IMG/VR virus record: IMGVR_UViG_3300008259_002461 | From: a virus | Lineage: Duplodnaviria > Caudoviricetes | Reading direction: 5' to 3' (one strand) | DNA length: 64,000 nucleotides | Part shown: piece after piece, positions 21,296-39,367 of the stretch | Numbering within the stretch: position 1 is the first letter of the stretch | Layout: each line of letters opens with the position of its first letter | The notes under the pieces: model-generated | Databases searched by the model: none | What the model was told of the DNA's origin: nothing | What the model saw: only the letters and a program-made list of their open reading frames with translations | Made by a program: the position numbers and the translations under genes

Positions 21296-21891
21296 CAAAG
21301 AAAATAATTATAACAGGCCATACACATGGTATAGGTAAAGCAATATATGATAAGTTTACAGAAATAAGTTGCCACGAGATTATAGGAATGAGTCGTAGCA
21401 ACGGTTACGATATTGATAAAGACTTTGACAAGATAGTTGCTGAAGCGGAAGGATGTGAGTTGTTTATCAATAATGCTTACCGTGATCAGCAACAGACTAA
21501 ACTAGTTAATGCTCTTAAAGACAAAGTAGATATGATGGTAGTTATGGGAAGTGTTAGTAGATTCTACCCTGAACTTATACCTACGCAATATGTACATGAT
21601 AAACAAGAACTAGCAGAAACTTGTAGACTAATAAGTTTGAATCCAGATGGTATTCCTTTATTACATTTAGACTTAGGATTTTTAGAAGGTACAGCAGTAG
21701 ATAATGCTGACCCAACTGCGTTTGTTAGCGACTACAATACTAAATTAGACGATATTGTTGATACAATTATATTCTGGGCGCAAAAGCCTAGCATTAGGCA
21801 AATTGAATTTAGATGGAAATTAACTCCACATGTATTAGCAGAATTAAATCGTATCAATCCTAACCTAGATCCATCTAGGATACAGTTCTAA
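21292..21891 (+). CDS. Short-chain dehydrogenase-like protein
   Basis: ITGHTHGIG, FINNA and YVHDK. Confidence 0.7.
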   Translation: MTKKIIITGHTHGIGKAIYDKFTEISCHEIIGMSRSNGYDIDKDFDKIVAEAEGCELFINNAYRDQQQTKLVNALKDKVDMMVVMGSVSRFYPELIPTQYVHDKQELAETCRLISLNPDGIPLLHLDLGFLEGTAVDNADPTAFVSDYNTKLDDIVDTIIFWAQKPSIRQIEFRWKLTPHVLAELNRINPNLDPSRIQF

Positions 21892-22416
21892 ATTAGCAAG
21901 AAATCGATCTGGATATATTCGCCAGACAGTTTGATCAGTATTGCGATAATTCATTTCGCACACACGTTCTACAATCCCTAGTTTAGCAAGTGTAGGAAAA
22001 TAATGTCTATGTACTAGACGTTGACTTGCTACAACACTTTCATTGCTTGTAGCATACAAATCCCCCTTTGCCCAGTTAATACATGCAGGGAGTAAAAACT
22101 GATCTGTTAAGTTTTGATGTTCAGCAATTAATTTCTTAGCTGTAATCAATCCAGTGTTTAAATTAGCCTCAGCAAGTGTACAGGTACGTGCTAGTACACG
22201 ATAAGCGTTAGGCCCCATGATATTAAAACTATGTGCAGCTACACTTCCAATAGCACGATCATTTTGATATAGAATCCATGCTGCCCACTCTGGTTCATTT
22301 TGAAAACAGTCAATCATTACTTTTTGATTACTATTGTTTTCAAACCCCCTACGTTTTGCATTAGAATAGAATTCGGTTAAGTCTAATTCTTCTGACCATG
22401 GAACAATTTTAAACAT
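21865..22416 (-). CDS. Hypothetical protein, possible GNAT-fold acyltransferase
   Basis: WILYQNDRAIGSVAAH...YRVLARTC pattern. Start moved to 22416. Confidence 0.4.
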   Translation of the reverse strand: MFKIVPWSEELDLTEFYSNAKRRGFENNSNQKVMIDCFQNEPEWAAWILYQNDRAIGSVAAHSFNIMGPNAYRVLARTCTLAEANLNTGLITAKKLIAEHQNLTDQFLLPACINWAKGDLYATSNESVVASQRLVHRHYFPTLAKLGIVERVCEMNYRNTDQTVWRIYPDRFLANLELYPRWI

Positions 22417-23104
22417 ATAATTTTTTACATTCATCCATAAAGTCTGAAGGAAAATTTGTTTTAAAACTTTCAAATGCTAGTAACTGTATATCTTTAAAAG
22501 GAGTTGGCATATTTACGTCTATACCCGCAGCAGTCATTTTAGGTAGCAAGTCCTTTTGTCTATCTTCGCTGATGTGACTCATCACACTACGTAAACTAAT
22601 TTGCTGATCAAGGTCTCGATAACAGAAAAAATAATTGATACTTTTAAGCTGACCGTTAACAACAAAATAACTACTGGGATGTAAACTATATTTGTATATT
22701 CCTAATGACGTATGCGCCTTAAATATTTCCAACATTTGTTCACGCCAATTGGGTAGTACACTATCATAGTCTTGTTTAATAGGATCAGCTTGTTGCCAAA
22801 AATCAACACCGTCTATTTCAAGATAGAGTTTTCTTTTTTCTAAATCTATATTAATAATCTTAGGAACTAGATGCGGAAATGTATTACGCATTTGAGTAAT
22901 GTAGTTTACTTCACGTAACCATTTTTCCTCCATTAAGTCAGGATCAACAATTTGATTTTGTCCTCGATGATAATCAGTATCATTATGGTACCATTGACAA
23001 AATGTTTTACGATCCTTACTTATAAGACTTGTATAAATTAAATTATTACGACATAATCCTTTACCAGGTACGTCATTATAATAGTATTCAAAATTAGTGG
23101 ACAA
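22409..23104 (-). CDS. Kinase/phosphotransferase-like protein
   Basis: WLREVNYI..VPKIINID..LYLEI, paralog of 18024. TTG start. Confidence 0.5.
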   Translation of the reverse strand: MSTNFEYYYNDVPGKGLCRNNLIYTSLISKDRKTFCQWYHNDTDYHRGQNQIVDPDLMEEKWLREVNYITQMRNTFPHLVPKIINIDLEKRKLYLEIDGVDFWQQADPIKQDYDSVLPNWREQMLEIFKAHTSLGIYKYSLHPSSYFVVNGQLKSINYFFCYRDLDQQISLRSVMSHISEDRQKDLLPKMTAAGIDVNMPTPFKDIQLLAFESFKTNFPSDFMDECKKLYV

Positions 23105-24110: not shown

Positions 24111-24926
24111 ATGATTAAAGGAATTGGCGGTAAGCCTTATATAAACTTAGATCCATTTTTAGATATTGATGGATTTAAAAATCTACATCCAGAAATATGT
24201 AAAGGGTTTGCCCTAGCTAGAGATTATGCCAAGGAAGGCACTTGGATGAAACCAGGGTTTGATTGGAAAGATGCTAGTTACATAGTTAATTGGAAACCAA
24301 TTTATAAAGCAGTAGAAGAATATCTAGCTTTACCCAAGGAGCATCCTATTCGTGTACACGGCGATCCTATGTATTTTACAGACTTGAGTGATTTTAAAAA
24401 TCGTAACTTATTCACACGTTATCTTAAAATGGCCATGGGTGCGAGTGATCCTTATATTTACTACTTTCTGTGGGAACAAGGTGATTGGAACGACCGTAGC
24501 GCAGAACGCAAACCTACAGAAGAAAGCAAATACTTTCCTGGTGTAGTAACGTGGGTAAACAATCTAGTAGAACAAAACATTATTAGCCAAATTGGTCGAG
24601 TTATATTCTTTCACTGTGATCATAATGGACTAGGGTTTGAGCACAGAGACTTAGATGCTAACAATGGTGTATTAGAAAAGAACTCCTACACTGACCACCG
24701 CAACGAATTTATACACATACGTTTTAGAACCAAGCGTGGATTTTATATTTGGGATCCGGATACTGAGAACAAACACTATATCAATAGCAATGCCGGCTTC
24801 TGGAATGACGAAGACTGGCATGGCGGCGACAGTATAGGCGAACAGGATTATGCTTTACGTGTAGATTGTAAATTTACAGAAGAGTTTCGCAAGGCTCTTA
24901 AGATAGATTATTTGGAAAATTATTAA
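24111..24926 (+). CDS. Putative Fe(II)-dependent oxygenase (cupin)
   Basis: FEHRD...WHGG. Confidence 0.55.
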   Translation: MIKGIGGKPYINLDPFLDIDGFKNLHPEICKGFALARDYAKEGTWMKPGFDWKDASYIVNWKPIYKAVEEYLALPKEHPIRVHGDPMYFTDLSDFKNRNLFTRYLKMAMGASDPYIYYFLWEQGDWNDRSAERKPTEESKYFPGVVTWVNNLVEQNIISQIGRVIFFHCDHNGLGFEHRDLDANNGVLEKNSYTDHRNEFIHIRFRTKRGFYIWDPDTENKHYINSNAGFWNDEDWHGGDSIGEQDYALRVDCKFTEEFRKALKIDYLENY

Positions 24927-25660
24927 TGAAAATAGGTTTTTTTGGCGACAGCTTTTGTGCAGAAATGAATAATACTTATACTTGGAAAAACAAGTATGAT
25001 ACTTATATCAACAAATTGCAGGATCATTACAAAGCAAAAATAGTAAATTTAGGATATGGGGGTAGTAGCTATTGGGATCTAATACTGTATCAATTTCCAA
25101 AGTTTATTAATAACTTACCTGATGTATGCATATTTGTATGGACTTCGCCTGGACGAATTTATCATCCTGAGTGTCGAAACATTACTTCTTGGGTTTTAGA
25201 TATAGATAATGTGCCTATTTCAGAATTTCATTATACTAGACTTTTATATAAGAAAAAATATAAAGTTGCAGCTGAATTTTATAAAGAGCTCTATAATGAG
25301 GAAAAAGAAAAGCGAGAAAGATTAGCAGCCTTATATCATTACGATAGAGAAGTATTACTTCCCTTAATGGAAAAAACTAAAATAATTCATCTATGGAGTT
25401 TTGGTAACTTTAAAACTTGGCACGACCCTAACACACGTTATAGTGCAAACAACATGTATTATGATTATAGATTTTTAAGTGGCACAGAGTGTAGACCAGC
25501 TTTAGAAAATTTTTCTAAGTATAATAAAGATGTTGATTATAATACAGATACAGTTTCAAATCATTTATTTGGTAATGAAATTAATGATCTTGTAAAAAAC
25601 ATGTTAGTAGAAGCAATTGACAATCATGGTAACGGAAAAGTTTTAGATTTTAATTTATGA
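24926..25660 (+). CDS. SGNH/GDSL hydrolase-like protein
   Basis: GFFGDSF, NLGYGGSS and VSNH. Confidence 0.6.
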   Translation: MKIGFFGDSFCAEMNNTYTWKNKYDTYINKLQDHYKAKIVNLGYGGSSYWDLILYQFPKFINNLPDVCIFVWTSPGRIYHPECRNITSWVLDIDNVPISEFHYTRLLYKKKYKVAAEFYKELYNEEKEKRERLAALYHYDREVLLPLMEKTKIIHLWSFGNFKTWHDPNTRYSANNMYYDYRFLSGTECRPALENFSKYNKDVDYNTDTVSNHLFGNEINDLVKNMLVEAIDNHGNGKVLDFNL

Positions 25661-26154
25661 AATATATAGGAAATTATAGTTCTTGGATAAATGACAATTG
25701 GATTTCTAAAATATTAGAAACTCCAGGACAAGCCCGCCCCAGAGATTGGCCGCCAAATTCTAAAATTGAACAAGAAGAATATCAGCGATATGCAACTTCT
25801 GGATACGATCTAAACGCAGTTAATTGGTGGATTTACGAAAGTAAAGATCTAGATATAATAATTTCCCCGCCTTGGACCAATGGAAAAATTCATTGGTGGA
25901 TTACTAAATTAACCCCAGGACAATTCATGCCAATGCACACTGATCCTCATACACACGATGTTAGCTGTTTGCGATATTGGGTTCCGTTACAGGACTATCA
26001 TCCTGGGCATATATTTGTATACAAAGATGAAATGATCACTAATTATAAAAAAGGTGATGTATATGTTTACACTAGTTCTACAGATTTACATGGCGCTGCT
26101 AACATAGGCCAGATACCTAGACTTGTTTTACAAATTACAGAATATGACATCTAA
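25657..26154 (+). CDS. 2OG-Fe(II) oxygenase (AspH-like)
   Basis: MPMHTD...LHGAANIG..PR. Confidence 0.75.
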   Translation: MKYIGNYSSWINDNWISKILETPGQARPRDWPPNSKIEQEEYQRYATSGYDLNAVNWWIYESKDLDIIISPPWTNGKIHWWITKLTPGQFMPMHTDPHTHDVSCLRYWVPLQDYHPGHIFVYKDEMITNYKKGDVYVYTSSTDLHGAANIGQIPRLVLQITEYDI

Positions 26155-27298
26155 GACATATTGCGTATATCCTTTTATAAGTTCTAGTCTGCAAGCAGAT
26201 AACACAGTTTTGCCTTGCGGACAGTTTATGAAATCTACTCTATTTCAAAACATTATTCCAATAAATGAAGTAAGACACGGCCCTGTAATGCAAGAAATGC
26301 GTAGAAAAATGTTAAACGGCGAACGAGTAGAAGGATGTCAATGCTATGCTGAAGAAGATGTAGGTATTCCGTCAATGCGCCAAAGCGGACTTAACAAATA
26401 TGAATTTACTACTGACACTACAATAAAAAAATTAGAATTAGTCATGGATAACATCTGTAACATAAAATGCAGAAGTTGTGGTTCACCTAATAGTCATACT
26501 TGGCACGAAGATGAAATAAAAATTTACGGAGAATCTTTTTCTAAGAAAAAATATATTAAAAATACTTTATACAAAGATCTTGAGTTAGATAGCTTAATTG
26601 AAATAGAAGTTCTTGGTGGTGAGCCAATGTACAGTCCGGGAACTAGAGATTTTTTTAAATTATTAAAAGACAAGGACATTTTAAAAAATCTTTCTATACA
26701 ACTAAGCACAAACGGAACTATAGAACCAACTGACTCTGTATTAGACAGTTTATTAAGTTGTAAAGAATTAAGTTTAAATATTAGTATAGACGGATTTGGT
26801 CATTATAATGATTATATTAGAAGCGGCTCCGATTGGAATGCAATTGAACAGAATTTAAAATTTTATGATAACTTAATTGATTTAAGAAAAGATAAAAAAA
26901 CATCAATGAACGTGCATACGGCAGTAAGCATTTATAATGTAAACCAACTCGACTTGTTAGACAACTACGTTAAAGAACACTTCCCTAGATTTTCTAAAAC
27001 ATTTCAACTAGTACAATATCCAGTATTTTTGTCTATTAAAAACACTCCATTAGAATATAAAGAACTAGTCTCTAAATACATTAATAACGATAGTATTACT
27101 GAATATCTCAACTCAGAAGGAAATGATCATTTCCAACATTTTATAAACTATTCTCAACAGCTTGATGAAATTAGATCGGAAGATATGGCAGAATTTAATC
27201 CGCTGTTAAAACAATATATTGAAAAGTATACTTCTAAGGTAACTAGAGCAGAAAGTAAAGTTTTTTTAATAAAAGAATTTAAAAAACTACAAAATTAA
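26144..27298 (+). CDS. Radical SAM protein with N-terminal twitch domain
   Basis: YCVYPF..PC, CNIKCRSC and LGGEP. Start moved to 26144. Confidence 0.88.
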   Translation: MTSKTYCVYPFISSSLQADNTVLPCGQFMKSTLFQNIIPINEVRHGPVMQEMRRKMLNGERVEGCQCYAEEDVGIPSMRQSGLNKYEFTTDTTIKKLELVMDNICNIKCRSCGSPNSHTWHEDEIKIYGESFSKKKYIKNTLYKDLELDSLIEIEVLGGEPMYSPGTRDFFKLLKDKDILKNLSIQLSTNGTIEPTDSVLDSLLSCKELSLNISIDGFGHYNDYIRSGSDWNAIEQNLKFYDNLIDLRKDKKTSMNVHTAVSIYNVNQLDLLDNYVKEHFPRFSKTFQLVQYPVFLSIKNTPLEYKELVSKYINNDSITEYLNSEGNDHFQHFINYSQQLDEIRSEDMAEFNPLLKQYIEKYTSKVTRAESKVFLIKEFKKLQN

Positions 27299-28518
27299 TT
27301 CCAGTCTAGATTATAATGCCAAGTTGGTTTTTTTAAAGTTTCCATATTAGTAATTTTAAAATCTTTACTAATTCCCAATGTCTTTAAATTTTCTACAAAT
27401 CCAACTGCGGCCCTAATATTAAAATTAATTGTACATTCAGGAACTTTTTCTTTTAATGAATTAATAATTTCATTTTCTTTGTGTACCCTATAGTACAACG
27501 GTGACAAACATGCTGTACCTTCGTAGCAAAAAATATTTGATAAATTAATTAACGTAGTTGAATTATGCTCTGCGTTGATGTAATCTATAAGATTATTTTC
27601 TAATAGTAAATCGGCTTTTACAAATATATACTCAATATTATTCTTTTGTTGAATTTTGTTCTTCCAGTAGTTTAAAGCATTATCATTGTAATCATAAACA
27701 ACGATTCGACCCTCGTCAATTAAATCAGTATAAAGTAGACCACTAGCTGGAATAATTAATTGTGTAAATTTTTTATTAACATTGCTATGTTCTTCGGTAT
27801 TTTCTGTATGAATAAATTCAGATGCTGCATACTTTTCTCGAAAGTATACCCAATTAAGATTTTCTAAAAAGTCTTTTTTAGATTCTGGATAAAGATGTTT
27901 TTTGTTATGTCTAATATCGTTATTAAATATTTTAACAGGCAGATTATATGTAAGTGCTAAACTTAATATATTCCATCCGTGACATTTATGATCATATGAT
28001 TTAGTTTGATATCCAGTTTTAACCCAAATAGGTGTATAATCATCGTGTATATTTTCTACACTTCTTTCTGGAATCACTTGAGTATGTTTAGTACCAAGCT
28101 CTAATTGACCAATTGCTGGACAACCTAATTTACGATATATTTCTAAATTTATTAGATAACACTGATTGTGCAGTTCATAATATGCGGTACCTCTATCTAG
28201 AATATGTCCATAGATAAAAAAATCGTCTTTGATAAGATCTTCTAATGAATTAAAAAACTCACTTCCGTTAATAAATTCTGTCCCAGTACTAAAGACAAGA
28301 GCATAGGTATAATCTAAATTTGCTACATGTTGTAATACAGTATCCTCATTTAAAGACTGATATACATCATAATTTTTATTTAGTACATTTGATAATGTAT
28401 AATCAGACTGATTTTTTATAATTTCCTTACAAAAATTATCTTGTATCTGATTAGTATTATCTATAAAACAAAATGCAATCTTATTAGAAGAATTATAATT
28501 GTACTCAACTACATTCAT
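27295..28518 (-). CDS. Hypothetical protein, possible glycosyltransferase-like N-terminus
   Basis: Long ORF. GHILD..YELHNQCYLINL suggests a GT-A-like region (weak). Confidence 0.35.
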   Translation of the reverse strand: MNVVEYNYNSSNKIAFCFIDNTNQIQDNFCKEIIKNQSDYTLSNVLNKNYDVYQSLNEDTVLQHVANLDYTYALVFSTGTEFINGSEFFNSLEDLIKDDFFIYGHILDRGTAYYELHNQCYLINLEIYRKLGCPAIGQLELGTKHTQVIPERSVENIHDDYTPIWVKTGYQTKSYDHKCHGWNILSLALTYNLPVKIFNNDIRHNKKHLYPESKKDFLENLNWVYFREKYAASEFIHTENTEEHSNVNKKFTQLIIPASGLLYTDLIDEGRIVVYDYNDNALNYWKNKIQQKNNIEYIFVKADLLLENNLIDYINAEHNSTTLINLSNIFCYEGTACLSPLYYRVHKENEIINSLKEKVPECTINFNIRAAVGFVENLKTLGISKDFKITNMETLKKPTWHYNLDWN

Positions 28519-29516
28519 TTTTTATAAAATTTAATAGGCAAAACATTTTCTTCGGTCAATATTACTTCATTTTGAGATGACGGACACATTGAACATTCAC
28601 TAATTGGTTTATACTTAGAAATAGAAAAATTTTCTACTTCTTCGTCAGTACAATTAGTTAAGTCAAGAGGTTTGTATGCTAAAAATTTCTGCCATTCTTC
28701 GTCGTCGACTGCATTATGTCTTTCTAAAAAGTTTTTTAAAGTTCCTAATGCTGCACACTTATAAAGTTTTTTATTATACATAAATGTACAGTAACAACTT
28801 GGACAGTTACCATAATAAGCCTTTTCAATATCCGTTGAGTTAAACGGTTTTGGTTTATTATCTTTCATGTAAAAATGTTTTAGATGGGAATCTTGATCAA
28901 TTGAAAGTACACCGTACTGGCCGTTCCACCAAAAGTCATCATCAGGCGGAATTGGTGATTTATTTTCTATAGCACAATAAGCATTATGTCTATAGTCCTT
29001 AACATCAATCCAATAATTCCTCCAACCATCAGTAGAGTCGTACATCATCTTTGACCAAAAATTCTCACTAGGAAGTTTTTGAATATCAAGTTTTTCTGTT
29101 AACACTTCAACGGCAGCTTTTATTCTATTTGATCGAGTCTTATCTTCAAATTGAATAAAGTGATCACTAACTAATATCATAACTTTATACTTAACAATAA
29201 TATTAGATAAGAAGTCTATGTTCTTATCGATAAGTTCGCCATTAGTTGGAATCCATACTGGTGTAGTTTGATCAAAGCTTCTAATAAATTCTAGGAGTGA
29301 TTCAATTCTGTCTTTGTATAACAGTGGTTCACCGCCTAGTAAACTATAGTGTTCAATATGAAACTTTTCTTTAGTTAACAGAATTCCTTCTTTGATTGTT
29401 TCAAGGTCAGGATCATGTTCTCCTTTTCTAATCAAGTCACTACGTGTATCACACTGTTGGCAGGCAATTTGACATTTATTGCCGTAAAAAATATCAAAAA
29501 CTTTAAGATTGGGCAT
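28515..29516 (-). CDS. Radical SAM protein
   Basis: CQIACQQC, LLGGEPLL and LYKC..CSMCP. Start moved to 29516. Confidence 0.85.
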   Translation of the reverse strand: MPNLKVFDIFYGNKCQIACQQCDTRSDLIRKGEHDPDLETIKEGILLTKEKFHIEHYSLLGGEPLLYKDRIESLLEFIRSFDQTTPVWIPTNGELIDKNIDFLSNIIVKYKVMILVSDHFIQFEDKTRSNRIKAAVEVLTEKLDIQKLPSENFWSKMMYDSTDGWRNYWIDVKDYRHNAYCAIENKSPIPPDDDFWWNGQYGVLSIDQDSHLKHFYMKDNKPKPFNSTDIEKAYYGNCPSCYCTFMYNKKLYKCAALGTLKNFLERHNAVDDEEWQKFLAYKPLDLTNCTDEEVENFSISKYKPISECSMCPSSQNEVILTEENVLPIKFYKK

Positions 29517-30249
29517 TATATTCCTTTTTATAACTTCTAGCAACGAGTTTAGTAAACTCACTTGTTTTATTTTCTAATTTACCGTGCGCAATTAAATGTA
29601 TCCTAGACGTGTTAGATAAATTTATTACGCTATGATAATTTCTAATATTTATGATAAATGCTTTTCCGGTTTTAAATGGAACACATCCGTAACCGTCCAA
29701 GCTCATATAACATTCTTCTGGATGTACTAATGCTATGTTTATGGGAACTCCAAATTTGAGAGCATCAAAGTTTTCTTCACCAGGTAATTTACCAGGGGCA
29801 TCACTATGCGGGCTAATATGCCCTCCTGCTTCCAATTCCATAAATCTTATTCTTCTATAAGTATCGTACGGAAAGTTCTTCCAAAATTCTTTAATTACAG
29901 GTGTTTTGGATGCTACCGGGGTCCAATCATATGGTACTTGATCTTCATGGGTGTAACCATACGAAGTCCATGCACCGGTGCTAGCCGCGTTTATACCGTG
30001 TATACAGCAACTATTCCACCCATGACTATCGCTTTCTCTATGAGGAACTAAATGTACTTTTGAATCCTCAGCTTCTTTAATCCATTTATCAACATCAAAC
30101 TCAATATCAAGTTCTAACCAACCAAAATTACTTTTGTTCAATAACCAATCTGCTATTTCATAATCAGTTTTCGCCCATTCAGGCATTTTAGGTAAGTTAG
30201 ATTTTATATTTTTGTTTTTGTGATAAAAATCCAACGCAGTGGTATTCAT
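29503..30249 (-). CDS. Aspartyl/asparaginyl beta-hydroxylase-like 2OG oxygenase
   Basis: ISPHSD...YHSVIN..RIHLI. Confidence 0.8.
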   Translation of the reverse strand: MNTTALDFYHKNKNIKSNLPKMPEWAKTDYEIADWLLNKSNFGWLELDIEFDVDKWIKEAEDSKVHLVPHRESDSHGWNSCCIHGINAASTGAWTSYGYTHEDQVPYDWTPVASKTPVIKEFWKNFPYDTYRRIRFMELEAGGHISPHSDAPGKLPGEENFDALKFGVPINIALVHPEECYMSLDGYGCVPFKTGKAFIINIRNYHSVINLSNTSRIHLIAHGKLENKTSEFTKLVARSYKKEYNAQS

Positions 30250-30276
30250 GTCATTAACCTAGTATTTTATATCTTG

Positions 30277-30288: not shown

Positions 30289-30292
30289 GTTT

Positions 30293-31126
30293 ATGAACAC
30301 AAAAATAAAAATCCCACATCTTGAGTGGCATGTTGCTCATGCTTGTAATCTATCTTGTAAAGGTTGTTGCCATCTTTCTGATTATGGGCAAAAAGGAATA
30401 GTTAGTTATAATGAGATCAAAGACTGGTATTCAAAATGGAGTCATAGACTAGCACCAAAATCAATAGACATTTTAGGGGGAGAACCTTTATTAAACAAAG
30501 ATATCTGTAAAATTATTTCTTTAACAAGAGAAATGTGGGATGATCCGTATCTAGAACAATTACAATTAACAACTAACGGACTTTTAATTCACAAATTTCC
30601 AGATTTACCTAAAGTATTAAAAGATTCTAATTGTTCTATTTCAGTGTCTTGGCATAGTGAAGATCCAAGTTATAATAAATTGTTTGATAAATCTAAAAAC
30701 ATTTTAAATGAATGGGTAGAAAAATACGGAATCCAAGTTCGTATACTAGATTTTTATAATTATTGGACTCCATTTTATAAAGGTTACGGTAGCACTATGG
30801 AACCGTTTAACGAAGAAAACTTTGAAAAAAGTTGGGATAATTGTATAACGGGACAAGATTGTTTTCAGATATATAATGGCGATATTTATAAATGCTCAAA
30901 TTTAGCGTACTTGCCTATGACTAAACAAAAAATTAATCTTTCAGAGAATTGGGATTATTATCTAAGTTATGTTCCACTAAAGCCGGAAGCTTCGGACAAT
31001 GAAATTACAGAGTTTTTTAATAAAGGTGCAGAAAAATTTTGTAGTATGTGTCCCAATTCAGTTGAAATGATTAAAAAACCAGATCCTTTAAAATTTCGTA
31101 AACAAATACTGATGAAGAAAATTTGA
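30293..31126 (+). CDS. Radical SAM protein
   Basis: CNLSCKGC, ILGGEPLL and IYKC..CSMCP, paralog of 28515. Confidence 0.88.
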   Translation: MNTKIKIPHLEWHVAHACNLSCKGCCHLSDYGQKGIVSYNEIKDWYSKWSHRLAPKSIDILGGEPLLNKDICKIISLTREMWDDPYLEQLQLTTNGLLIHKFPDLPKVLKDSNCSISVSWHSEDPSYNKLFDKSKNILNEWVEKYGIQVRILDFYNYWTPFYKGYGSTMEPFNEENFEKSWDNCITGQDCFQIYNGDIYKCSNLAYLPMTKQKINLSENWDYYLSYVPLKPEASDNEITEFFNKGAEKFCSMCPNSVEMIKKPDPLKFRKQILMKKI

Positions 31127-32331
31127 TTATGAAACAAGGAAGATTAATAAACTTTGAATTACTGTGGGATACTGACCTAAGCGTCAATGTTGTATTACCA
31201 AAACTACTTGAATTAGAATTTCAAGAAGCAGTAGCTGACGGAGTAACTACCATTTTTGGAATGTTTTTAATGGAGGGAATTTATCCGCATGATTGTCATA
31301 ATCAACAACTGTTTTTAGAAATTAAAAAAATAGCTGACAAATACAATTTAGAAGTTATTCTATTGTCAGGCCTTGGAGAAAGTTTTAACAATCAGTATAG
31401 TATAGAAAATGGTAGTATTTTAAACAATCTTCCATTTGAGGTAATATACTCATCATATCCTTTAAGAGTATGTTACAACATCATTAATAATATTCCTAGA
31501 AAATCAAAAACTATCAATAATAAGTTTTTATTCTTAGGTGGAATTCCTACTAGATTAAATAGAATTTATTTATTAAGTAAGTTGTATGAAAACAATCTTT
31601 TAATAAATGGTAAATGGTCATTTTTTATTCCGTTATCCCAAGAAGATAAAAATTATTGCAGAAATTTATTATCACATTATTCAGATGAAGAGTACGAAAC
31701 TTTTTTAAAAAACTGTACTAGCTCAATAGATGAAAAATATCAAGAAATGGCTAACTTTTTTCAAGACTATGCACCGTACGAAGAAGGCGATCTTGAAAAG
31801 TGGGGCGAAATAGTTCATACTGATTTTTGGAAAAATCCTATATACATAGATCCTGAAGTTTACGATGAAACTTCGTTAAGTATAATTTCTGAAGGTCCAA
31901 ATTATTGGTCGCCTGATTATAAATTTATTACAGAAAAAACATGGCGGACAATAATTTATAAGCATCCTTTTATATTTGCAGGCCCGCCTGAACAGTTTAG
32001 ATATATTAAACAAATGGGATTTGAAACATTTGAAAAATATATGCTTATTCAAAATTATGCACAGGTGGAAGATGAAAAAGAAAGAATTGAATTGATTGTT
32101 AAAAATGTAGAACATTTTTTAAAACACCAAACTTATCATCAAAAAGAAATACAACAAGATATTGAACATAATTTTAACTTATTCTTAAAACTAGCCAATG
32201 ATCAAAATTGTCTACTAACATCTTTAAAATCAAAATACAATATTCCTGATGCTGAGTTTTCAAAATTTTTTAGTACAACCGGCTATGAAAATTTGATTAG
32301 GCCCGTTGCCGACCTCAAAAAATTAGGCTAG
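31123..32331 (+). CDS. Glycosyltransferase-like protein (GT-B/GT10-like)
   Basis: SIISEG..FITEKTWR..HPFIFAG..GFETF. Confidence 0.5.
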   Translation: MIMKQGRLINFELLWDTDLSVNVVLPKLLELEFQEAVADGVTTIFGMFLMEGIYPHDCHNQQLFLEIKKIADKYNLEVILLSGLGESFNNQYSIENGSILNNLPFEVIYSSYPLRVCYNIINNIPRKSKTINNKFLFLGGIPTRLNRIYLLSKLYENNLLINGKWSFFIPLSQEDKNYCRNLLSHYSDEEYETFLKNCTSSIDEKYQEMANFFQDYAPYEEGDLEKWGEIVHTDFWKNPIYIDPEVYDETSLSIISEGPNYWSPDYKFITEKTWRTIIYKHPFIFAGPPEQFRYIKQMGFETFEKYMLIQNYAQVEDEKERIELIVKNVEHFLKHQTYHQKEIQQDIEHNFNLFLKLANDQNCLLTSLKSKYNIPDAEFSKFFSTTGYENLIRPVADLKKLG

Positions 32332-32363
32332 CATCATATTCGTAGTTATCAATAGTGTATGGT

Positions 32364-32403
32364 TATAAATAAGTTTATGACTATATCTGTTAGACTATCA
32401 TGA
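32364..32403 (+). promoter_or_regulatory. Late promoter plus 8-codon upstream ORF
   Basis: TATAAATA at 32364-32371, then ATG 32377 encoding MTISVRLS with a TGA overlapping ATG 32400. Confidence 0.5.
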
Positions 32404-33314
32404 AAAATAATTACGATAAACGGCATCTTCCTTTTGGACATTCTACAGCTATACAAGACAAAGAAACATTATCTTTTATCAATAATTGTAGTATCTCAAC
32501 ACAAACATTAAACGATCAAACAATTAACGAACAATTCCTTAGCAAGTATGTAGAATGGATATTGACTACAACAAATAACAAAGTAACTGGTATTGATCAG
32601 TATCCATTCAAATGTTTTTCGCAAGGGACATCTGAAGCGTTTGAAAAATTTTATATGAATTATTCTCATAGAAGATTTCGATGTTTTAAAGGCGAGTATG
32701 TTTATCATAAATTAGCTTGGAGAGATGATAGATTTAATTGGAAATACTTAGAGGATGATGCGCTTGATGCCAATGACGTAGTAATAATTAGTCAACCTTT
32801 TTCTGATACAGGCGATCAGCATCCTTTACTTAATGATATTTTAGATCAATGTGACAAACTAAATATTCCTGTAGTACTTGATTGTTGCTACTTTGGTATT
32901 TGTAGTAATATAAATTTTGATTTTACAAGACCTTGTATAAAAGAAATCATCTTTAGTTTATCTAAAACTTTTCCAGTAGCTCATATTAGAATAGGTATGC
33001 GTCTTTCAAGGATTGATAATGACGATTTGTTATTTGTGTATAACAAAAGTGGCTACACAAATAGATTAGCAGCAAGTATAGGACTTAATCTTATTAATCA
33101 TTTTGATTCTGACTACATAGTTAATAAGTATAAAAATAAACAAATTGAAATCTGTAAAAAATTAAATGTAACTCCTAGCAATACTGTGTTGTTTGGAATA
33201 GGCGGCTCTGAATGGCAGGAATACAATCGTGATAGAGCTACTAACAGATTAGGATTACATAATTTTTTACACATGGAAGATACAGAGTGCTTAGATGAAT
33301 ATGTCAAAATCTAA
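32400..33314 (+). CDS. PLP-dependent aminotransferase-like enzyme (fold type I)
   Basis: VVLDCCY and FSLSKTF (PLP lysine)..RIG. Confidence 0.75.
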   Translation: MKNNYDKRHLPFGHSTAIQDKETLSFINNCSISTQTLNDQTINEQFLSKYVEWILTTTNNKVTGIDQYPFKCFSQGTSEAFEKFYMNYSHRRFRCFKGEYVYHKLAWRDDRFNWKYLEDDALDANDVVIISQPFSDTGDQHPLLNDILDQCDKLNIPVVLDCCYFGICSNINFDFTRPCIKEIIFSLSKTFPVAHIRIGMRLSRIDNDDLLFVYNKSGYTNRLAASIGLNLINHFDSDYIVNKYKNKQIEICKKLNVTPSNTVLFGIGGSEWQEYNRDRATNRLGLHNFLHMEDTECLDEYVKI

Positions 33315-34482
33315 AATTATAAATTTTGAATGGATGTGTGATCACAATCATTACACCCATGAACAATTTGATAAAATTAAAACTGATTTAATTAAAAAAG
33401 ACATTGATCAAGCCATAGATGAAAATGTTGATACTGTTGTAGGGCTTTATCTAATGGATGGGTTTTTACAACCTAAGTATAGATACAAAGAGTTTATTTT
33501 GCACCTAAACGAAATAAAAGATTATGCTTACAATGCTGGAATTAAAAAAATAATTCTAATAAGTGGCCATGGCGAAACATTAGATAATTGTCCCTTTGAA
33601 TACCTGTTTTTAGATTTTAATCTTAGATTATTAATTAATAGCTATCCTGATCTAAATGTATTACCTAAATTCAATCCTGAAAATACAAAGTTTCTCTTTT
33701 TAACTGGCATGCCAAATAGACCTAATCGTATAGGTCTATTGAGCAAGTACTATGATAAAGATTTATTAGACACTGCTGAGTGGAGTTTTTTTGGCCCATG
33801 GACACCTATGGATCAATCTTGGTGTAGAGAATATCTTAAACATTATAGTGATGAACACTACAATACATTTTTAATTAATTGTGAAAGATCTTTTGATAAT
33901 AGATATGAAACGTGTAAGCCATTCTATGGATCGTATACTTCAACGGAAAATGCACCGCTATGGTATGATGTAGTTAATATTGACTGGGTTCAATTACCCA
34001 GTCATATTGATTCTAAAGTATATAGCGATACACTTTTTAGTGTTATATCTGAAGGTCCAAATTTTTGGTCTGAAGATTGGAGTTTCATTACAGAAAAAAC
34101 ATGGCGAACTTTTTTACATCGTCATCCTTTTATATTTGCCGGGCACCCTGATCAATTTAGATATATTAAGAAACTTGGATTTAAAACATTTGAAGAATAT
34201 TTGTTAATCAAAGATTACGCCTATATTGAAGATGAAAATGAAAGACTAGATGCTGTAGTCAAAAATACAGAATACTTATTAAAAAATATAAAAAATAATT
34301 TAGATGCTATAGAAAAAGACGTAGAATATAATTATCAAATGTATTTTAATCATGTAAACAATCAGGATAAAATTTTTAAATTCTTAAAGCACGATTTAAA
34401 TGTTTCGTCAGATGATATCCAGCCATATGCTAATATCAAAGGTTATCCGTATCTCATTAGGAGAATACCTGATGGATTCTAA
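33295..34482 (+). CDS. Glycosyltransferase-like protein (GT-B/GT10-like)
   Basis: Close paralog of 31123: SEGPN.W..FITEKTWR..HPFIFAG. Confidence 0.5.
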   Translation: MNMSKSKIINFEWMCDHNHYTHEQFDKIKTDLIKKDIDQAIDENVDTVVGLYLMDGFLQPKYRYKEFILHLNEIKDYAYNAGIKKIILISGHGETLDNCPFEYLFLDFNLRLLINSYPDLNVLPKFNPENTKFLFLTGMPNRPNRIGLLSKYYDKDLLDTAEWSFFGPWTPMDQSWCREYLKHYSDEHYNTFLINCERSFDNRYETCKPFYGSYTSTENAPLWYDVVNIDWVQLPSHIDSKVYSDTLFSVISEGPNFWSEDWSFITEKTWRTFLHRHPFIFAGHPDQFRYIKKLGFKTFEEYLLIKDYAYIEDENERLDAVVKNTEYLLKNIKNNLDAIEKDVEYNYQMYFNHVNNQDKIFKFLKHDLNVSSDDIQPYANIKGYPYLIRRIPDGF

Positions 34483-35404
34483 ATGTGCAGCTTTCTGGAA
34501 ACATACTAATGTTCGTAGCGATAACAAAATATTTCCCTGTTGTAGATTTAAGAATCCTGTAGATAATTTCAACGGCGATTTAATTCATATATTAGAGTCC
34601 AGTGCATATAAAGAACTTAGAAAAAAAAGTTTAAACGGTGAATTTATCCAAGGTTGCGAAAAATGCTATTACGAAGATGCCAACGGTAGGCAAAGTCTTC
34701 GACAACGATTAAACAAAGAATATACTACTGACACAGTTGAATTAGAATTTTTAGAAATAGGGTTTGACAATATATGTAATTTAACCTGTGACGGATGCTG
34801 GAGTGATTTTAGTTCCGAGTGGAGTAAAAAACTTAACCCTACTGCAAACAAGATTACTCACTATCGTTCAGTTGATGAGATTGTTAAAGTTCCGTCTAGT
34901 ATTAAAAAAATACTCTTTTTAGGCGGTGAACCTTTAATGACCAACCGGCATGAAAAGTTTTTAAAACTAATTGAAAATCCAGCAGCAGTTGAAATAATTT
35001 ACAACACTAACGGAATGTTTTTGTTAAAAGAAGAATTTATTAATTTTTTACATCAGTTTAAATCGGTAAAATTTACGTTAAGTATTGATGGGTACAAAGA
35101 TCTAAATAACAAAGTTAGATCTGGAAGTAAGTGGGAAGATATTTTAAGTTTTATAGAACAGATATCTAAATCTAACTTTGATCTAGAAGTGAATACAGTG
35201 TTACATTTAAATAACTGGCACGGAATAAAGGAGCTTGAATCCTTTATACAACAATTAGGAGTACCGTGGATAGTAAATGTTTTAACATATCCTACACATT
35301 TAGATATTTCTAATTTTGAACAAAAGGAACAAATTATTAATTTGATTAGCGAAACAAACATTCCAAATAAAACTTATGTCATTAACCATCTATTACATAA
35401 TTAA
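34472..35404 (+). CDS. Radical SAM protein with N-terminal twitch domain
   Basis: CAAFW..FPCC, CNLTCDGC and LGGEP. Start 34472 follows AGGAG. Confidence 0.88.
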   Translation: MDSKCAAFWKHTNVRSDNKIFPCCRFKNPVDNFNGDLIHILESSAYKELRKKSLNGEFIQGCEKCYYEDANGRQSLRQRLNKEYTTDTVELEFLEIGFDNICNLTCDGCWSDFSSEWSKKLNPTANKITHYRSVDEIVKVPSSIKKILFLGGEPLMTNRHEKFLKLIENPAAVEIIYNTNGMFLLKEEFINFLHQFKSVKFTLSIDGYKDLNNKVRSGSKWEDILSFIEQISKSNFDLEVNTVLHLNNWHGIKELESFIQQLGVPWIVNVLTYPTHLDISNFEQKEQIINLISETNIPNKTYVINHLLHN

Positions 35405-35419
35405 TAAAAGGAGTTATTT

Positions 35420-36040
35420 ATGAGTTCAGAATTTTATCAGTATTTTGATTATCCAAATTGGTTAGAACATCAAAAAAAATTGTTAGCATATAGACAATTA
35501 AAGATGGCTGACATCGTAACTGACAATCAATCATGGGCTGCGTTAAACTATGATGAATTTTCTATGGATTTAAAAGATGTTATTGACGATTATGCACAGC
35601 TTGGTCTATACATAAAACAGTTAATTTTTATATCTTTCCCCCCTACTGATTTAAATTCTACAGACATGAATGATCCAAAAACAATTTATATACATGTTGA
35701 CAGTAAGGATGACGATGAACATTTGTTAAAGGAATCAGCTCCTACATTGTTTTCTCCAAGATATGTATTTAATATTCCATTAATAAATTGTGAAAACAGT
35801 ACTACGTTTTTTTATGATTTTATAGATCCAAATAAACACACAAAAGACACTCATGTATATTTTGGAGGTTGTGTCGATTACAGTAATGTAGTTGAAGTGG
35901 ATAAATTTACTCTTAACAAACCTGCATTTCTAAAAGTTAGTGTTCCCCATGCAGTGCATAATCCTACTGATAGTTTAAGAATTGTTTGTAGTATGCGTGT
36001 TGATGATAGTAGTCCATTACTAAAAAGGCTTTTCAAATGA
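35420..36040 (+). CDS. Putative 2OG-Fe(II) oxygenase/cupin
   Basis: YIHVD...PHAVHN..R. Confidence 0.6.
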   Translation: MSSEFYQYFDYPNWLEHQKKLLAYRQLKMADIVTDNQSWAALNYDEFSMDLKDVIDDYAQLGLYIKQLIFISFPPTDLNSTDMNDPKTIYIHVDSKDDDEHLLKESAPTLFSPRYVFNIPLINCENSTTFFYDFIDPNKHTKDTHVYFGGCVDYSNVVEVDKFTLNKPAFLKVSVPHAVHNPTDSLRIVCSMRVDDSSPLLKRLFK

Positions 36041-36612
36041 CATCAACTATAAGCTGTAAACGGTATATTGAATATAACAAGATTATTAGTGCTGTAGATT
36101 CAATGGCTAAAAAAGTTGCAGAATTTAGAGAAACTATGTCAAGTGATATGTACGACTTGACTCAAGTTGACCCGGCTCCTGATTTAACAGACATACATCC
36201 TAGAGATAGAAAAAATGTTAAAATTCTTTGCGGTGCTTTGCCCTTTGATGGAAAACCAAACTTAGGCAAACTATTAAAAGAAGAATCAGATATACTAACA
36301 AATTTAAAAGGATATTCTGCTGGGTTTGTTTTCTTTATGACTCCAAATTCAATCTTACCATTACATGTACACGGCGAATATGTAGCGAAAGATTCAAACG
36401 ATACAATAGGAGTTTGGAATGCCTGTTTTGGAATTACAGTACCGTCGACAGATTCTAACATGGTAGGTATAGAAGTAAACGGTGAAGTTTATTCTCATGG
36501 TCATAATGTAGATGTAACATTTGACCCACAAACACCGCATCAAGCATGGAACCACACTAACGAGTGGTGGACTATGTTAATCTTAAATATTGATAAGAGA
36601 TTTTTTATTTAA
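36037..36612 (+). CDS. AspH-like cupin oxygenase
   Basis: LPLHVH...PHQAWN. Confidence 0.65.
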   Translation: MTSTISCKRYIEYNKIISAVDSMAKKVAEFRETMSSDMYDLTQVDPAPDLTDIHPRDRKNVKILCGALPFDGKPNLGKLLKEESDILTNLKGYSAGFVFFMTPNSILPLHVHGEYVAKDSNDTIGVWNACFGITVPSTDSNMVGIEVNGEVYSHGHNVDVTFDPQTPHQAWNHTNEWWTMLILNIDKRFFI

Positions 36613-36622
36613 AGGAAATATT

Positions 36623-37681
36623 TTGAAAATATCAACAAATAATCATTGGGATCCATTAGAAGAAATAATTGTAGGCATAGCTGATCATGCACGAGTGCCT
36701 ACAGTGGACAGAAGCACCATGAATATGAGCTACAGTAACTATAGTATGGATAGTGTTAAACCTTTAGAAGGAGCATATCCTCAATGGTTAATTGATGAAG
36801 CTAACGAAGACTTGGAAGGATTGGCTACCGCGCTAAGAAAAGCCGGAGTTAAAGTACATAGACCAAAGCCGTTAGATCACAGTAAACAGTTTAGTACACC
36901 AGAGTGGCAAACTACTGGTTGGTATACTTGGTGTCCTAGAGACTTACTGTTGCCGTTAAAAAATCTAATTATTGAAACGCCTAGTGGGTGTCGTTCTAGA
37001 TATTTTGAAACTAGGGCATATCACGATATAATGTTAGAAGCAGTTCGAGATGGAGTTGAATGGATAGCAGCACCTAAACCTATTCTATTAGATGAAGGCT
37101 ATCAATTTGAAGATATACAAGGAAAGCCAAGTTTATTAAATTTAGAACCTATATTTGATGCTCCTAACTGTGTGCGTTTGGGTAAAGATATTTTATTTCA
37201 AATTTCAAACACTGGTAATCATTTAGGAATGCAATGGTTAAAAAATGTGCTTGAACCTAGAGGTTATAGAATACATGCGGCAGAGCATATTTACAGTTTT
37301 GCTCATATGGATAGTACCATCGTTCCTTTAAGTCCGGGGAAAGTTTTGTTAAATAGTACTAGAGTCACGCCTGAAAATTGTCCTAAGATATTTGAAAAAT
37401 GGGATAAGATATGGTTTAAAGATGTAAATATTAATCCTACTACAGAAACCGGACCAGGCAGTATCAGTCCGTGCAGTCCGTATATAGGAATGAATATTTT
37501 AAGTATAAACCCTAGTACAGTAATAGTAGGCGAAGATCAGATTAATTTAACAAGAGTTTTAGAAAAACAAGGATTTGATGTAGTACATGTAAAAATGCGG
37601 CACGCTCAAACACTTAGTGGCGGACTTCATTGTACTACTTTAGATTTAAGAAGAACAGGATCGTTAGAGGATTATACATGA
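36623..37681 (+). CDS. Amidinotransferase (glycine/inosamine-phosphate amidinotransferase family)
   Basis: WDPLEEIIVG, CPRD, HMDST and GGLHC (catalytic Asp/His/Cys). TTG start follows AAAGGA. Confidence 0.9.
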   Translation: MKISTNNHWDPLEEIIVGIADHARVPTVDRSTMNMSYSNYSMDSVKPLEGAYPQWLIDEANEDLEGLATALRKAGVKVHRPKPLDHSKQFSTPEWQTTGWYTWCPRDLLLPLKNLIIETPSGCRSRYFETRAYHDIMLEAVRDGVEWIAAPKPILLDEGYQFEDIQGKPSLLNLEPIFDAPNCVRLGKDILFQISNTGNHLGMQWLKNVLEPRGYRIHAAEHIYSFAHMDSTIVPLSPGKVLLNSTRVTPENCPKIFEKWDKIWFKDVNINPTTETGPGSISPCSPYIGMNILSINPSTVIVGEDQINLTRVLEKQGFDVVHVKMRHAQTLSGGLHCTTLDLRRTGSLEDYT

Positions 37682-39314: not shown

Positions 39315-39344
39315 GTAAATACTCCTGGTATCAATATCATATAG

Positions 39345-39352
39345 TATTTATG
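39345..39352 (-). promoter_or_regulatory. Late promoter motif
   Basis: CATAAATA upstream of the AGGAG SD. The ATAAATACTAT 11-mer recurs at 63271-63281. Confidence 0.55.
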
Positions 39353-39367
39353 CCTTTGAATAAAAGA

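What the first reader, a model, noticed from the sequence alone, without database searches (positions are those of the whole stretch)
32400..37681. Streptidine-like enzyme logic: dehydrogenase, aminotransferase, kinase, amidinotransferase
Seen: an intact amidinotransferase (36623), a PLP enzyme (32400), kinase-like proteins (18024, 22409) and SDRs (20855, 21292). Established: streptomycin streptidine synthesis uses oxidation, transamination, phosphorylation and StrB1 amidino transfer. Inference: the phage makes a guanidino-sugar or cyclitol, then oxidises, methylates and glycosyl-links it. I know of no such phage product.
Basis: inference. Interest (0 to 1): 0.72.

Follow-up and report, generated by a model that had tools for sequence, protein, structure and literature searches.

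The report
Phage amidinotransferase in glycan-tailoring cassette
A widespread freshwater giant phage carries an intact enzyme of the streptomycin StrB1 type that makes guanidino groups. Its conserved neighbours are sugar-transferase-like, vitamin-B6, radical SAM and oxygenase genes, so it probably decorates a sugar-linked product, not a streptidine-like cyclitol.

Summary
The amidinotransferase is real. ORF 36623-37681 matches StrB1 (PDB 1bwd) at E 1e-93 over its full length and keeps the Asp/His/Cys catalytic motifs. Ahead of the catalytic His it has a StrB1-like stretch, not the glycine-enzyme flap.

It belongs to a phage-only clade (73-90% identical across 29 related phage loci, at most 45% to bacteria).

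The PLP enzyme (32400) is also real, but it is HisC/CobD-like, not the DegT type used for streptidine. The "kinases" (18024, 22409) are kinase-fold-like by a weak lead and lack the catalytic Asp/Asn. The "SDRs" (20855, 21292) are short Rossmann proteins without YxxxK. Two related phage records hold no inositol-phosphate synthase and no DegT gene.

The conserved set is: radical SAM, GT-B-fold protein, PLP enzyme, GT-B-fold protein, N-twitch radical SAM, cupin, amidinotransferase, cupin. A more distant contig keeps PLP, amidinotransferase and two cupins back to back. A marine cyanophage shares the radical SAM, cupin and amidinotransferase among glycosyltransferases.

Best reading: a cytoplasmic route to a guanidino-bearing glycoconjugate; the final target is unknown.

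Phage amidinotransferase/radical SAM clusters were reported in 2010 and 2025 without a function. This scan also noted the same stretch in another window (e1-5366876).

The parts
36623..37681 (+). L-arginine amidinotransferase, StrB1-like, 352 aa (the ORF is open from 36590)
   Evidence: PDB 1bwd at E 1.1e-93. The C-P-R-D, F-D-A, H-x-D and H-C-x-T-L-D motifs are conserved. It forms a phage-only clade with SH-aLRT support 100. It is 73-90% identical in 29 phage loci.
37678..38172 (+). Small cupin dioxygenase (HxD...H). Its ATG overlaps the amidinotransferase stop (ATGA).
   Evidence: Paralogue of 25657 (E 8e-14). Homologue of S-SCSM2R_308, the 2OG oxygenase that abuts the amidinotransferase there (E 1e-12). 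Weak Asp_Arg_Hydrox hit. Found in 27 of 29 loci and follows the amidinotransferase directly in most of them.
36037..36612 (+). Cupin oxygenase of the Asp_Arg_Hydrox family, 191 aa, directly upstream of the amidinotransferase
   Evidence: Pfam PF05118 at E 4.3e-6, above the cut-off. Orthologues precede the amidinotransferase in several loci.
35420..36040 (+). 206-aa protein of unknown function; a variable member of the cassette
   Evidence: No Pfam, PHROG or NCBIfam hit. Found only in L007 (76%) and weakly in L001-L003 and L029.
34400..35404 (+). Radical SAM enzyme with an N-terminal twitch/SPASM-like domain (the true start is probably some 60-70 nt further in)
   Evidence: NCBIfam NF033640 N_Twi_rSAM at 212 bits (cut-off 170). 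Pfam Radical_SAM, plus SPASM at residues 29-90. 50-60% identical in 24 loci.
33295..34482 (+). GT-B-fold protein, a putative glycosyltransferase, 395 aa
   Evidence: AlphaFold pLDDT 91. In VIA-align nearly all of the top 50 chains are GT-B transferases at Z 8.3-10.9, led by T4 AGT, PimA and BGT. Viral structural relatives are fused to NDP-sugar epimerase/dehydratase or methyltransferase domains.
32400..33314 (+). Fold-type I PLP enzyme, HisC/CobD-like, 304 aa
   Evidence: The PLP lysine motif S-L-S-K189, D161, Y164 and R197 are invariant.
32364..32371 (+). TATAAATA motif in the 68-nt gap ahead of the PLP gene
   Evidence: Only 6 copies in the window against 12.7 expected. Three of them lie in island intergenic gaps. 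The promoter role is inferred, not shown.
31123..32331 (+). Second GT-B-fold protein, a paralogue of 33295, 402 aa
   Evidence: 39% identical to 33295 in alignment A1. It hits the same orthologues.
30293..31126 (+). Radical SAM enzyme, 277 aa, first gene of the plus-strand operon
   Evidence: Pfam Radical_SAM at E 7.9e-10. 39% identical to S-SCSM2R_306 (E 1e-67).
24111..30249 (.). Rest of the conserved cassette. Cupin-type genes: 24111 (a language-model lead only), 25657, 29503. Radical SAM genes: 26123, 28515. An SGNH-like gene: 24926. A conserved unknown of 407 aa: 27295.
22409..23104 (-). Kinase-fold-like protein without the catalytic Asp/Asn, at the left edge of the conserved cassette
   Evidence: 52-77% identical in 12 loci.
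18024..18701 (+). Distant paralogue of 22409
20855..21891 (+). Two tandem short Rossmann (SDR-like) proteins without YxxxK
   Evidence: A similar pair lies about 12 kb upstream of the amidinotransferase in G002.

Best explanation
ORF 36623-37681 is an active L-arginine-dependent amidinotransferase of the StrB1 branch. It would work by the usual ping-pong route through an amidino-cysteine intermediate.

It is the best-conserved gene of a phage-specific, entirely soluble cassette: radical SAM, GT-B, PLP enzyme, GT-B, N-twitch radical SAM, cupin, amidinotransferase, cupin.

Inferred steps:
1. The HisC/CobD-like PLP enzyme makes a primary amine on a small soluble precursor, either a sugar-type compound or an amino-acid-derived one, perhaps phosphorylated.
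2. The amidinotransferase converts that amine to a guanidino group and releases ornithine.
3. The translationally coupled cupin dioxygenases and the radical SAM enzymes carry out oxidative tailoring.
4. The two GT-B-fold proteins couple the unit into a glycoconjugate inside the infected cell, most likely on the phage's own particle.

It is not a streptidine (aminocyclitol) pathway.

Shown: the enzyme identities at family or fold level, and the conserved gene order. Inferred: the acceptor, the order of steps and the final target.
For: Amidinotransferase identity and intact motifs.

The stretch before the catalytic His reads Y-S-F-A-H, against StrB1's Y-A-S-T-H. The glycine/lysine enzymes have D-P-N-P-M, D-M-H-P-M or D-I-F-P-S there (PMC4887976).

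The cassette is conserved in 29 phage loci. The amidinotransferase is 73-90% identical, and the PLP, GT-B, twitch radical SAM and cupin genes are present in 24-27 of the loci.

The 3.7-kb contig L034 has an amidinotransferase 57% identical to this one. It keeps PLP, amidinotransferase, cupin and cupin back to back.

ATGA start/stop overlaps join cupin 36037 to the preceding gene and the amidinotransferase to cupin 37678.

Marine cyanophage S-SCSM2R shares the 30293-type radical SAM (39%, E 1e-67), the 37678-type cupin (E 1e-12) and an amidinotransferase, set among five glycosyltransferases. Campylobacter phage CP220 has an amidinotransferase among six radical SAM genes and two GT-A genes.

A bacterial StrB1-like gene (46% identical) forms a two-gene unit with a GT-B gene.

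GT-B fold of 33295 and 31123.

An NDP-sugar epimerase/dehydratase lies 23-26 kb upstream of the amidinotransferase in two related records.

No polytopic membrane protein was found among 46 island ORFs.
Against: No acceptor or product is shown; everything past the enzyme families is inferred from gene order.

The PLP enzyme's structural neighbours act on amino-acid-like phosphates, not on sugars.

No nucleotidyltransferase (PF00483) was found in the two related records, so any activated sugar would have to come from the host.

The GT-B assignment rests on fold alone (Z 9-11, about 10% identity), and no donor-binding motif was checked.

Fusions of related amidinotransferases elsewhere (NRPS A-T, HalD, TauD, class II aaRS-like) point to amino-acid acceptors, as does an AMP-binding gene after the amidinotransferase in L004.

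The TATAAATA motifs lie only 4-5 nt from ATG codons, so their role as late promoters is uncertain.
Confidence: 0.45

Rival explanations
1. Streptidine-like aminocyclitol route. Inositol would be oxidised, transaminated, phosphorylated and amidinated, then glycosylated.
For: StrB1 is the closest solved relative (317 bits against about 200 for AGAT). The stretch before the catalytic His is StrB1-like. A PLP enzyme and kinase-fold-like proteins are present.
Against: The PLP enzyme is HisC/CobD-like, not DegT. PF01041 and PF01658 have no match in two related phage records. The kinase-like proteins lack HxD..N. No Gfo/Idh/MocA dehydrogenase turned up in the Pfam scans. The SDR-like proteins lack YxxxK. 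The amidinotransferase is outside the actinomycete clades.
Confidence: 0.07
2. A free guanidino amino acid or a metabolic-flux function. The enzyme would make homoarginine, guanidinoacetate or a hydroxylated arginine analogue, or would shift arginine to ornithine. The cupins would hydroxylate the amino acid. The product stays soluble or is ligated by an adenylating enzyme.
For: Related amidinotransferases are fused to HalD, TauD, NRPS A-T and aaRS-like domains. An AMP-binding gene follows the amidinotransferase in L004 and L005. Pairing a class I-fold PLP enzyme with an Fe/2OG oxygenase is the known logic for capreomycidine and streptolidine (my own knowledge). Viral creatine-pathway genes have been reported in ocean viromes (PMC11360552).
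Against: The glycine/lysine-type flap is absent. The two GT-B-fold genes are as conserved in the cassette as the PLP gene. Glycosyltransferases surround the relatives in S-SCSM2R and CP220.
Confidence: 0.15
3. DNA hypermodification. A sugar or aminoalkyl group on a modified base would be guanidinylated.
For: The best structural match of 33295 is T4 alpha-glucosyltransferase bound to DNA (Z 10.9), with T4 BGT at Z 9.9. PLP and radical SAM enzymes take part in known thymidine hypermodifications (my own knowledge).
Against: The Z-scores of the DNA transferases are tied with dozens of other GT-B enzymes. The island is separated from the replication and deazaguanine genes by an Mtd-like fibre gene. 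No thymidylate-synthase-family gene was found in G001, and the one in G002 scores like an ordinary ThyA (353 bits).
Confidence: 0.1
4. Protein or peptide modification. The amidinotransferase would convert Lys or Orn side chains of a virion protein or a small peptide to homoarginine or arginine. This would sit alongside hydroxylation, radical SAM cross-linking and O-glycosylation.
For: The island is rich in families that typically act on proteins: Asp/Asn beta-hydroxylase-type cupins, SPASM/twitch radical SAM enzymes, a P4H-like oxygenase fused to a cold-shock domain, and a PrmA/PRMT-like methyltransferase. In S-SCSM2R a distant amidinotransferase and a 2OG oxygenase were found in the virion proteome (PMC12801897).
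Against: I know of no amidinotransferase that acts on protein residues. The tight PLP-amidinotransferase linkage (L034) points to small-molecule amine chemistry. I did not look for a precursor-peptide gene.
Confidence: 0.1

Closest known systems
StrB1, L-arginine:inosamine-phosphate amidinotransferase of Streptomyces griseus (PDB 1bwd)
   Same: Full-length homology at E 1e-93 and the same length class (about 350 aa). The Asp/His/Cys catalytic motifs are conserved. The stretch before the catalytic His is similar (Y-S-F-A-H against Y-A-S-T-H).
   Different: 43-45% identity to Streptomyces homologues. It sits in a separate phage-only clade on a long stem. None of the streptidine partner enzymes is present. 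The acceptor is unknown.
Radical SAM plus amidinotransferase modules of Campylobacter phages CP220 and CPt10 (Timms et al. 2010, PMC2853527)
   Same: The amidinotransferase is embedded among several radical SAM genes, with glycosyltransferases nearby, and the function is unknown.
   Different: The amidinotransferases are only 23-35% identical. No homologue of the PLP, GT-B or cupin genes was found there by BLAST. The glycosyltransferases there are GT-A.
Synechococcus phage S-SCSM2R ORF305-310, called 'antibiotic synthesis genes' (PMC12801897)
   Same: It has homologous radical SAM (39%), small cupin (28%) and amidinotransferase (34%) genes in one operon with glycosyltransferases.
   Different: Its PLP gene is annotated as AHBA-synthase/DegT-like and shows no similarity to 32400. 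It is a marine T4-like cyanophage.
AGAT, CyrA and AmtA (glycine or lysine amidinotransferases)
   Same: The same fold and catalytic mechanism.
   Different: They score about 120 bits lower than StrB1. The 300-flap that sets their acceptor choice is not present in the phage enzyme.

Membership tests
L-arginine amidinotransferases (GME/pentein superfamily, PF02274) | Full-length homology to solved amidinotransferases | tested here: met
   1bwd at E 1.1e-93 over residues 14-362. HsvA, SxtG and AGAT score between 5e-65 and 7e-57.
L-arginine amidinotransferases (GME/pentein superfamily, PF02274) | Catalytic Cys, His and Asp, plus the Asp/Arg residues that bind the guanidino group | tested here: met
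   C-P-R-D, R-S-R, F-D-A, H-x-D-S-T and G-G-x-H-C-x-T-L-D align with the StrB1 motifs. R106, D107, D179, H228, D230 and C337 are invariant across phage lineages.
L-arginine amidinotransferases (GME/pentein superfamily, PF02274) | Arginine-dependent amidino transfer with ornithine release | not testable with these tools
   This needs an enzyme assay.
Glycine/lysine amidinotransferases (AGAT, CyrA, AmtA) | The 300-flap D-x-x-P-[MS] just before the catalytic His | tested here: not met
   The phage enzyme has I-Y-S-F-A-H. Flap residues are taken from PMC4887976.
StrB1 orthologues (inosamine-phosphate amidinotransferase) | Placement inside the actinomycete clades that hold the Streptomyces homologues | tested here: not met
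   The phage clade is separate, with support 100 and a stem of 1.06 (quick tree).
Streptidine pathway | A DegT/StsC-type aminotransferase (PF01041) | tested here: not met
   The PLP enzyme is HisC/CobD-like. PF01041 has no match in G001 or G002 or in the window's scanned ORFs.
Streptidine pathway | An APH-type inosamine kinase with a catalytic Asp | tested here: not met
   In 22409 and 18024 the HxD..N positions hold Ser/Thr (alignment A4). The register was set by eye.
Streptidine pathway | An inositol supply and an inositol dehydrogenase | tested here: inconclusive
   PF01658 has no match in two related records, but these are only 80% and 59% complete. No Gfo/Idh/MocA hit in the window's scans. 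The host could supply inositol.
Fold-type I PLP enzymes, class I/II aminotransferase family | The fold, plus the Schiff-base Lys, the Asp facing the pyridine N and the phosphate-binding Arg | tested here: met
   Foldseek gives HisC and CobD at E 3e-9 and TM 0.6. D161, K189 and R197 are invariant. Pfam scores 19.6 bits against a cut-off of 19.7.
GT-B glycosyltransferases | The two-Rossmann GT-B fold | tested here: met
   Z 8.3-10.9 over 240-290 residues. Nearly all of the top 50 chains are GT-B enzymes. Foldseek is weak, at E 0.01.
GT-B glycosyltransferases | Nucleotide-sugar binding and transfer | not tested
   No sequence family hit. Motifs were not examined.
Classical SDR dehydrogenases | The catalytic Ser...YxxxK | tested here: not met
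   20855 and 21292 have TGxxxGxG and NNAY but no YxxxK, and are only 146 and 199 aa long.

The most novel reading that the evidence does not exclude
The cassette builds a guanidino-bearing sugar unit that is attached covalently to the phage's own virion proteins, or to its DNA. I know of no such modification chemistry in any virus. It would give the particle a fixed positive charge for host binding or for protection.
Probability: 0.25. Interest if true: 0.8.

Novelty: new variant of a known kind. Interest (0 to 1): 0.55.

Why it matters
Amidinotransferase/radical SAM clusters have sat unexplained in phage genomes since 2010.

This work defines a conserved core for one phage-only clade that is common in lakes: a PLP enzyme, GT-B-fold proteins, a twitch radical SAM enzyme, the amidinotransferase and small cupins. 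That core turns a vague label ('antibiotic gene' or 'glycine amidinotransferase') into a testable five-to-eight-gene pathway.

If the product is a guanidino glycoconjugate on virions or DNA, it would be a new kind of viral surface or genome chemistry. It would also be a source of new amidinotransferase and radical SAM activities.

If the product is only a free guanidino amino acid, the finding is a modest auxiliary metabolic gene.

Tried and rejected
- Profile searches of the PDB with the PLP alignment (A2) and the GT-B alignment (A1) gave nothing significant. Only the structure models resolved them.
- PHROGs gave nothing for nine cassette proteins. The amidinotransferase hit phrog_25854, a family of unknown function.
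- The N-twitch radical SAM enzyme showed only generic PDB hits (MoaA, GDGT synthase) and no BtrN-type match at E 0.01 or better.
- hhalign found no link between the phage GT-B family and the bacterial GT next to P0125.
- None of the 77 bacterial amidinotransferase loci carries a homologue of any cassette gene at E 1e-4 or better, so no donor pathway was found.
- No whole genome is held for the window.
- PF00483 (nucleotidyltransferase) had no match in G001 or G002.
- Megablast of 40-60 kb against isolated phages found no match.
- A freshwater metatranscriptome run held eight 100%-identical contigs on 30000-39500. The listed ones fall in the PLP, amidinotransferase and Mtd-like genes and just downstream. 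DNA carry-over cannot be excluded, so I do not count this as expression.
- TATAAATA as a late promoter: the count is below chance overall and three copies are intergenic, but they sit 4-5 nt from ATGs. I left this as a lead.
- I did not run complex prediction, because no claim here depends on binding.


Full report
**What the window is**

The window is part of a large phage. DNA polymerase, exonuclease, a QueE-like gene, an HNH endonuclease and an Mtd_N-bearing fibre-type protein lie at 38-64 kb. No cellular genome is held for it and no isolated phage matches it by megablast. The stretch 32400-38172 occurs at full identity in lake and freshwater metagenomes from many studies.

Positions 1-38 kb form one island of tailoring genes. 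It holds 13 proteins with CxxxCxxC motifs, many cupin or 2OG oxygenases and methyltransferases. No polytopic membrane protein occurs among its 46 ORFs.

**The amidinotransferase**

The ORF at 36590-37681 most likely starts at TTG 36623, behind AAGGA. That gives 352 aa, the length of its relatives.

phmmer against PDB sequences gives StrB1 (1bwd) at E 1.1e-93 (317 bits) over the whole length. HsvA scores 223 bits, SxtG 206 and AGAT about 200. The motifs that carry the catalytic Asp, His and Cys and the guanidino-binding residues are conserved. They are invariant even against the distant copies in Campylobacter phage CP220 and Synechococcus phage S-SCSM2R.

Just before the catalytic His, the glycine and lysine enzymes have the '300-flap' (D-P-N-P-M, D-M-H-P-M or D-I-F-P-S; PMC4887976). 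The phage enzyme has Y-S-F-A there, like StrB1's Y-A-S-T. It therefore resembles the open-site StrB1 type and not a glycine enzyme.

**Distribution and phylogeny**

A search of 5.8 billion proteins found 1747 relatives at E 1e-10 or better. The best 120 are all at least 72% identical, and those I traced lie on viral contigs of up to 287 kb.

A scan of 185,579 species genomes gave three close hits (85, 74 and 57% identity) on short contigs, and nothing else above 45%. The two MAG contigs among them, L032 and L033, carry the phage cassette, so they are mis-binned phage DNA.

In a quick maximum-likelihood tree the phage sequences form one clade with support 100 on a long stem. This clade is separate from the actinomycete, myxobacterial and proteobacterial groups, and no donor lineage is visible.

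**The other enzymes named in the finding**

- PLP enzyme (32400): real. Pfam is borderline. A model with pLDDT 85 matches HisC, the threonine-phosphate decarboxylase CobD and other class I enzymes at E 3e-9. The PLP-binding Asp, Tyr, Ser-x-Ser-Lys and Arg are invariant. This is not the DegT/StsC family that makes aminocyclitols.
- 'Kinases' 18024 and 22409: paralogues with no family hit. Only a language-model lead points to the RIO/Kdo/APH fold. By my by-eye register the catalytic Asp and Asn positions are Ser or Thr.
- 'SDRs' 20855 and 21292: 146 and 199 aa, with a dinucleotide-binding start but no YxxxK.
- Two related phage records (281 kb and 217 kb, incomplete) have no inositol-1-phosphate synthase and no DegT gene.

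The streptidine template is therefore met only by the amidinotransferase.

**What actually travels with the amidinotransferase**

I compared 29 related loci. The conserved genes are:

- the PLP gene
- a GT-B-fold gene (two paralogues here, 31123 and 33295)
- the N-twitch radical SAM gene (34400; NF033640 at 212 bits)
- cupins (29503, 36037, 37678)
- further radical SAM genes (26123, 28515, 30293)
- an unknown 407-aa protein (27295)

The amidinotransferase is the most conserved of them, at 73-90% identity against 35-60% for its neighbours.

The protein at 33295 models at pLDDT 91. Against 48,161 chains it aligns almost only with GT-B glycosyltransferases (Z 8.3-10.9). Viral structural relatives are fused to NDP-sugar epimerase/dehydratase or methyltransferase domains.

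The small cupin at 37678 overlaps the amidinotransferase stop in an ATGA. It is homologous to the 2OG oxygenase that abuts the amidinotransferase in S-SCSM2R (E 1e-12). That cyanophage also shares the 30293-type radical SAM gene (39% identity, E 1e-67), and its operon is full of glycosyltransferases.

A more divergent 3.7-kb contig (L034, amidinotransferase 57% identical) keeps PLP, amidinotransferase, cupin and cupin back to back. CP220 has an amidinotransferase among six radical SAM genes and two GT-A genes. A bacterial relative (46% identical) sits in a two-gene unit with a GT-B gene. An NDP-sugar epimerase/dehydratase lies 23-26 kb upstream of the amidinotransferase in the two long related records. 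This agrees with unchecked first-reader notes of a sugar-building module just upstream of my window.

**Most likely function**

The recurrent link of the amidinotransferase with a PLP enzyme, small Fe/2OG-type cupins, radical SAM enzymes and glycosyltransferases across three phage lineages has one simplest reading: a cytoplasmic pathway to a guanidino-bearing glycoconjugate. No transporter, flippase or other polytopic membrane protein is present.

The proposed steps are: amine formation by the PLP enzyme, amidination from arginine, oxidative tailoring, and glycosyl transfer.

The final acceptor is unknown. The island's place between fibre-type genes points weakly to the virion. So does the report of a distant amidinotransferase and a 2OG oxygenase in purified S-SCSM2R virions (PMC12801897). 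I put this reading at 0.45.

**Rivals**

- Amino-acid acceptor. This is the main rival. Related amidinotransferases elsewhere are fused to HalD, TauD, NRPS A-T and aaRS-like domains. An AMP-binding gene follows the amidinotransferase in some relatives.
- DNA hypermodification. It is not excluded, since T4 AGT is the nominal top structural hit. That hit is tied with many other GT-B enzymes, and the island is apart from the deazaguanine module.
- Modification of protein residues. This is possible but has no precedent that I know of.
- A true streptidine-like cyclitol route. This is unlikely (0.07).

**Comparison with the literature**

Timms et al. (2010, PMC2853527) described interchangeable modules of five radical SAM genes plus a putative glycine amidinotransferase in CP220 and CPt10. 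The S-SCSM2R paper (2025, PMC12801897) called its genes 'antibiotic synthesis genes'. Neither assigned a function. In the held library I found no paper on this freshwater clade or on its PLP/GT-B/cupin core.

I rate it a new variant of a known kind: a known enzyme family in an uncharacterised, phage-specific pathway context.

Noticed in passing
window 38169-39314 (-): A 381-aa protein with an Mtd_N domain (E 2.3e-9). By my recollection this is the same length as the Bordetella phage BPP-1 tropism determinant. It is a conserved right-hand neighbour of the cassette. It may be a receptor-binding protein or a target of a diversity-generating retroelement; I did not look for a reverse transcriptase or template repeat.
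   Followed up: no
window 24100, 30282, 32365: ATAAATA lies 4-5 nt before an ATG at three operon starts. At 32377 that ATG opens an out-of-frame 8-codon reading frame whose TGA overlaps the PLP gene's ATG at 32400. The motif could mark a promoter for near-leaderless mRNA or a translation-initiation element.
   Followed up: partly
L032 (JADHOR010000039.1), L033 (NYWG01000113.1): These contigs are filed in Puniceispirillum and Verrucomicrobiales MAGs. They carry the phage cassette at 74-85% amidinotransferase identity and are almost certainly mis-binned phage fragments.
   Followed up: partly
L034 (Synechococcus lacustris Tous, contig C123): A 3.7-kb contig holds PLP, amidinotransferase (57% identical), cupin and cupin back to back. 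It is the most compact form of the module. It could hint at a picocyanobacterial host or be phage DNA in a non-axenic culture.
   Followed up: partly
L121 8653-11059, L122: In a bacterial contig, a GT-B glycosyltransferase (PF13528) and a StrB1-like amidinotransferase form an isolated two-gene unit between riboflavin genes and type VI secretion genes.
   Followed up: no
P0135, P0136, P0139, P0143, P0230: StrB1-like amidinotransferase domains occur fused to a class II aaRS-like domain, TauD, an FAD oxidase, an NRPS A-T didomain and a HalD-type halogenase/hydroxylase. To my knowledge none of these fusion architectures has been characterised.
   Followed up: partly
window 19827-20858 (+): A cold-shock domain is fused to a 2OG-Fe(II) oxygenase (Pfam CSD at E 4.5e-8 and 2OG-FeII_Oxy_3 at E 3.4e-10).
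   Followed up: no
L119 16585-20337 (S-SCSM2R ORF264-269): A second, very distant amidinotransferase-like gene (ORF266) sits next to kdsA and kdsB and two 2OG oxygenases. ORF266 and ORF269 were reported in the virion proteome.
   Followed up: partly
window 1610-2920, 14795-16042, 34400-35404: Three radical SAM proteins have the SPASM/twitch-like cysteine domain at the N-terminus instead of the usual C-terminus.
   Followed up: no
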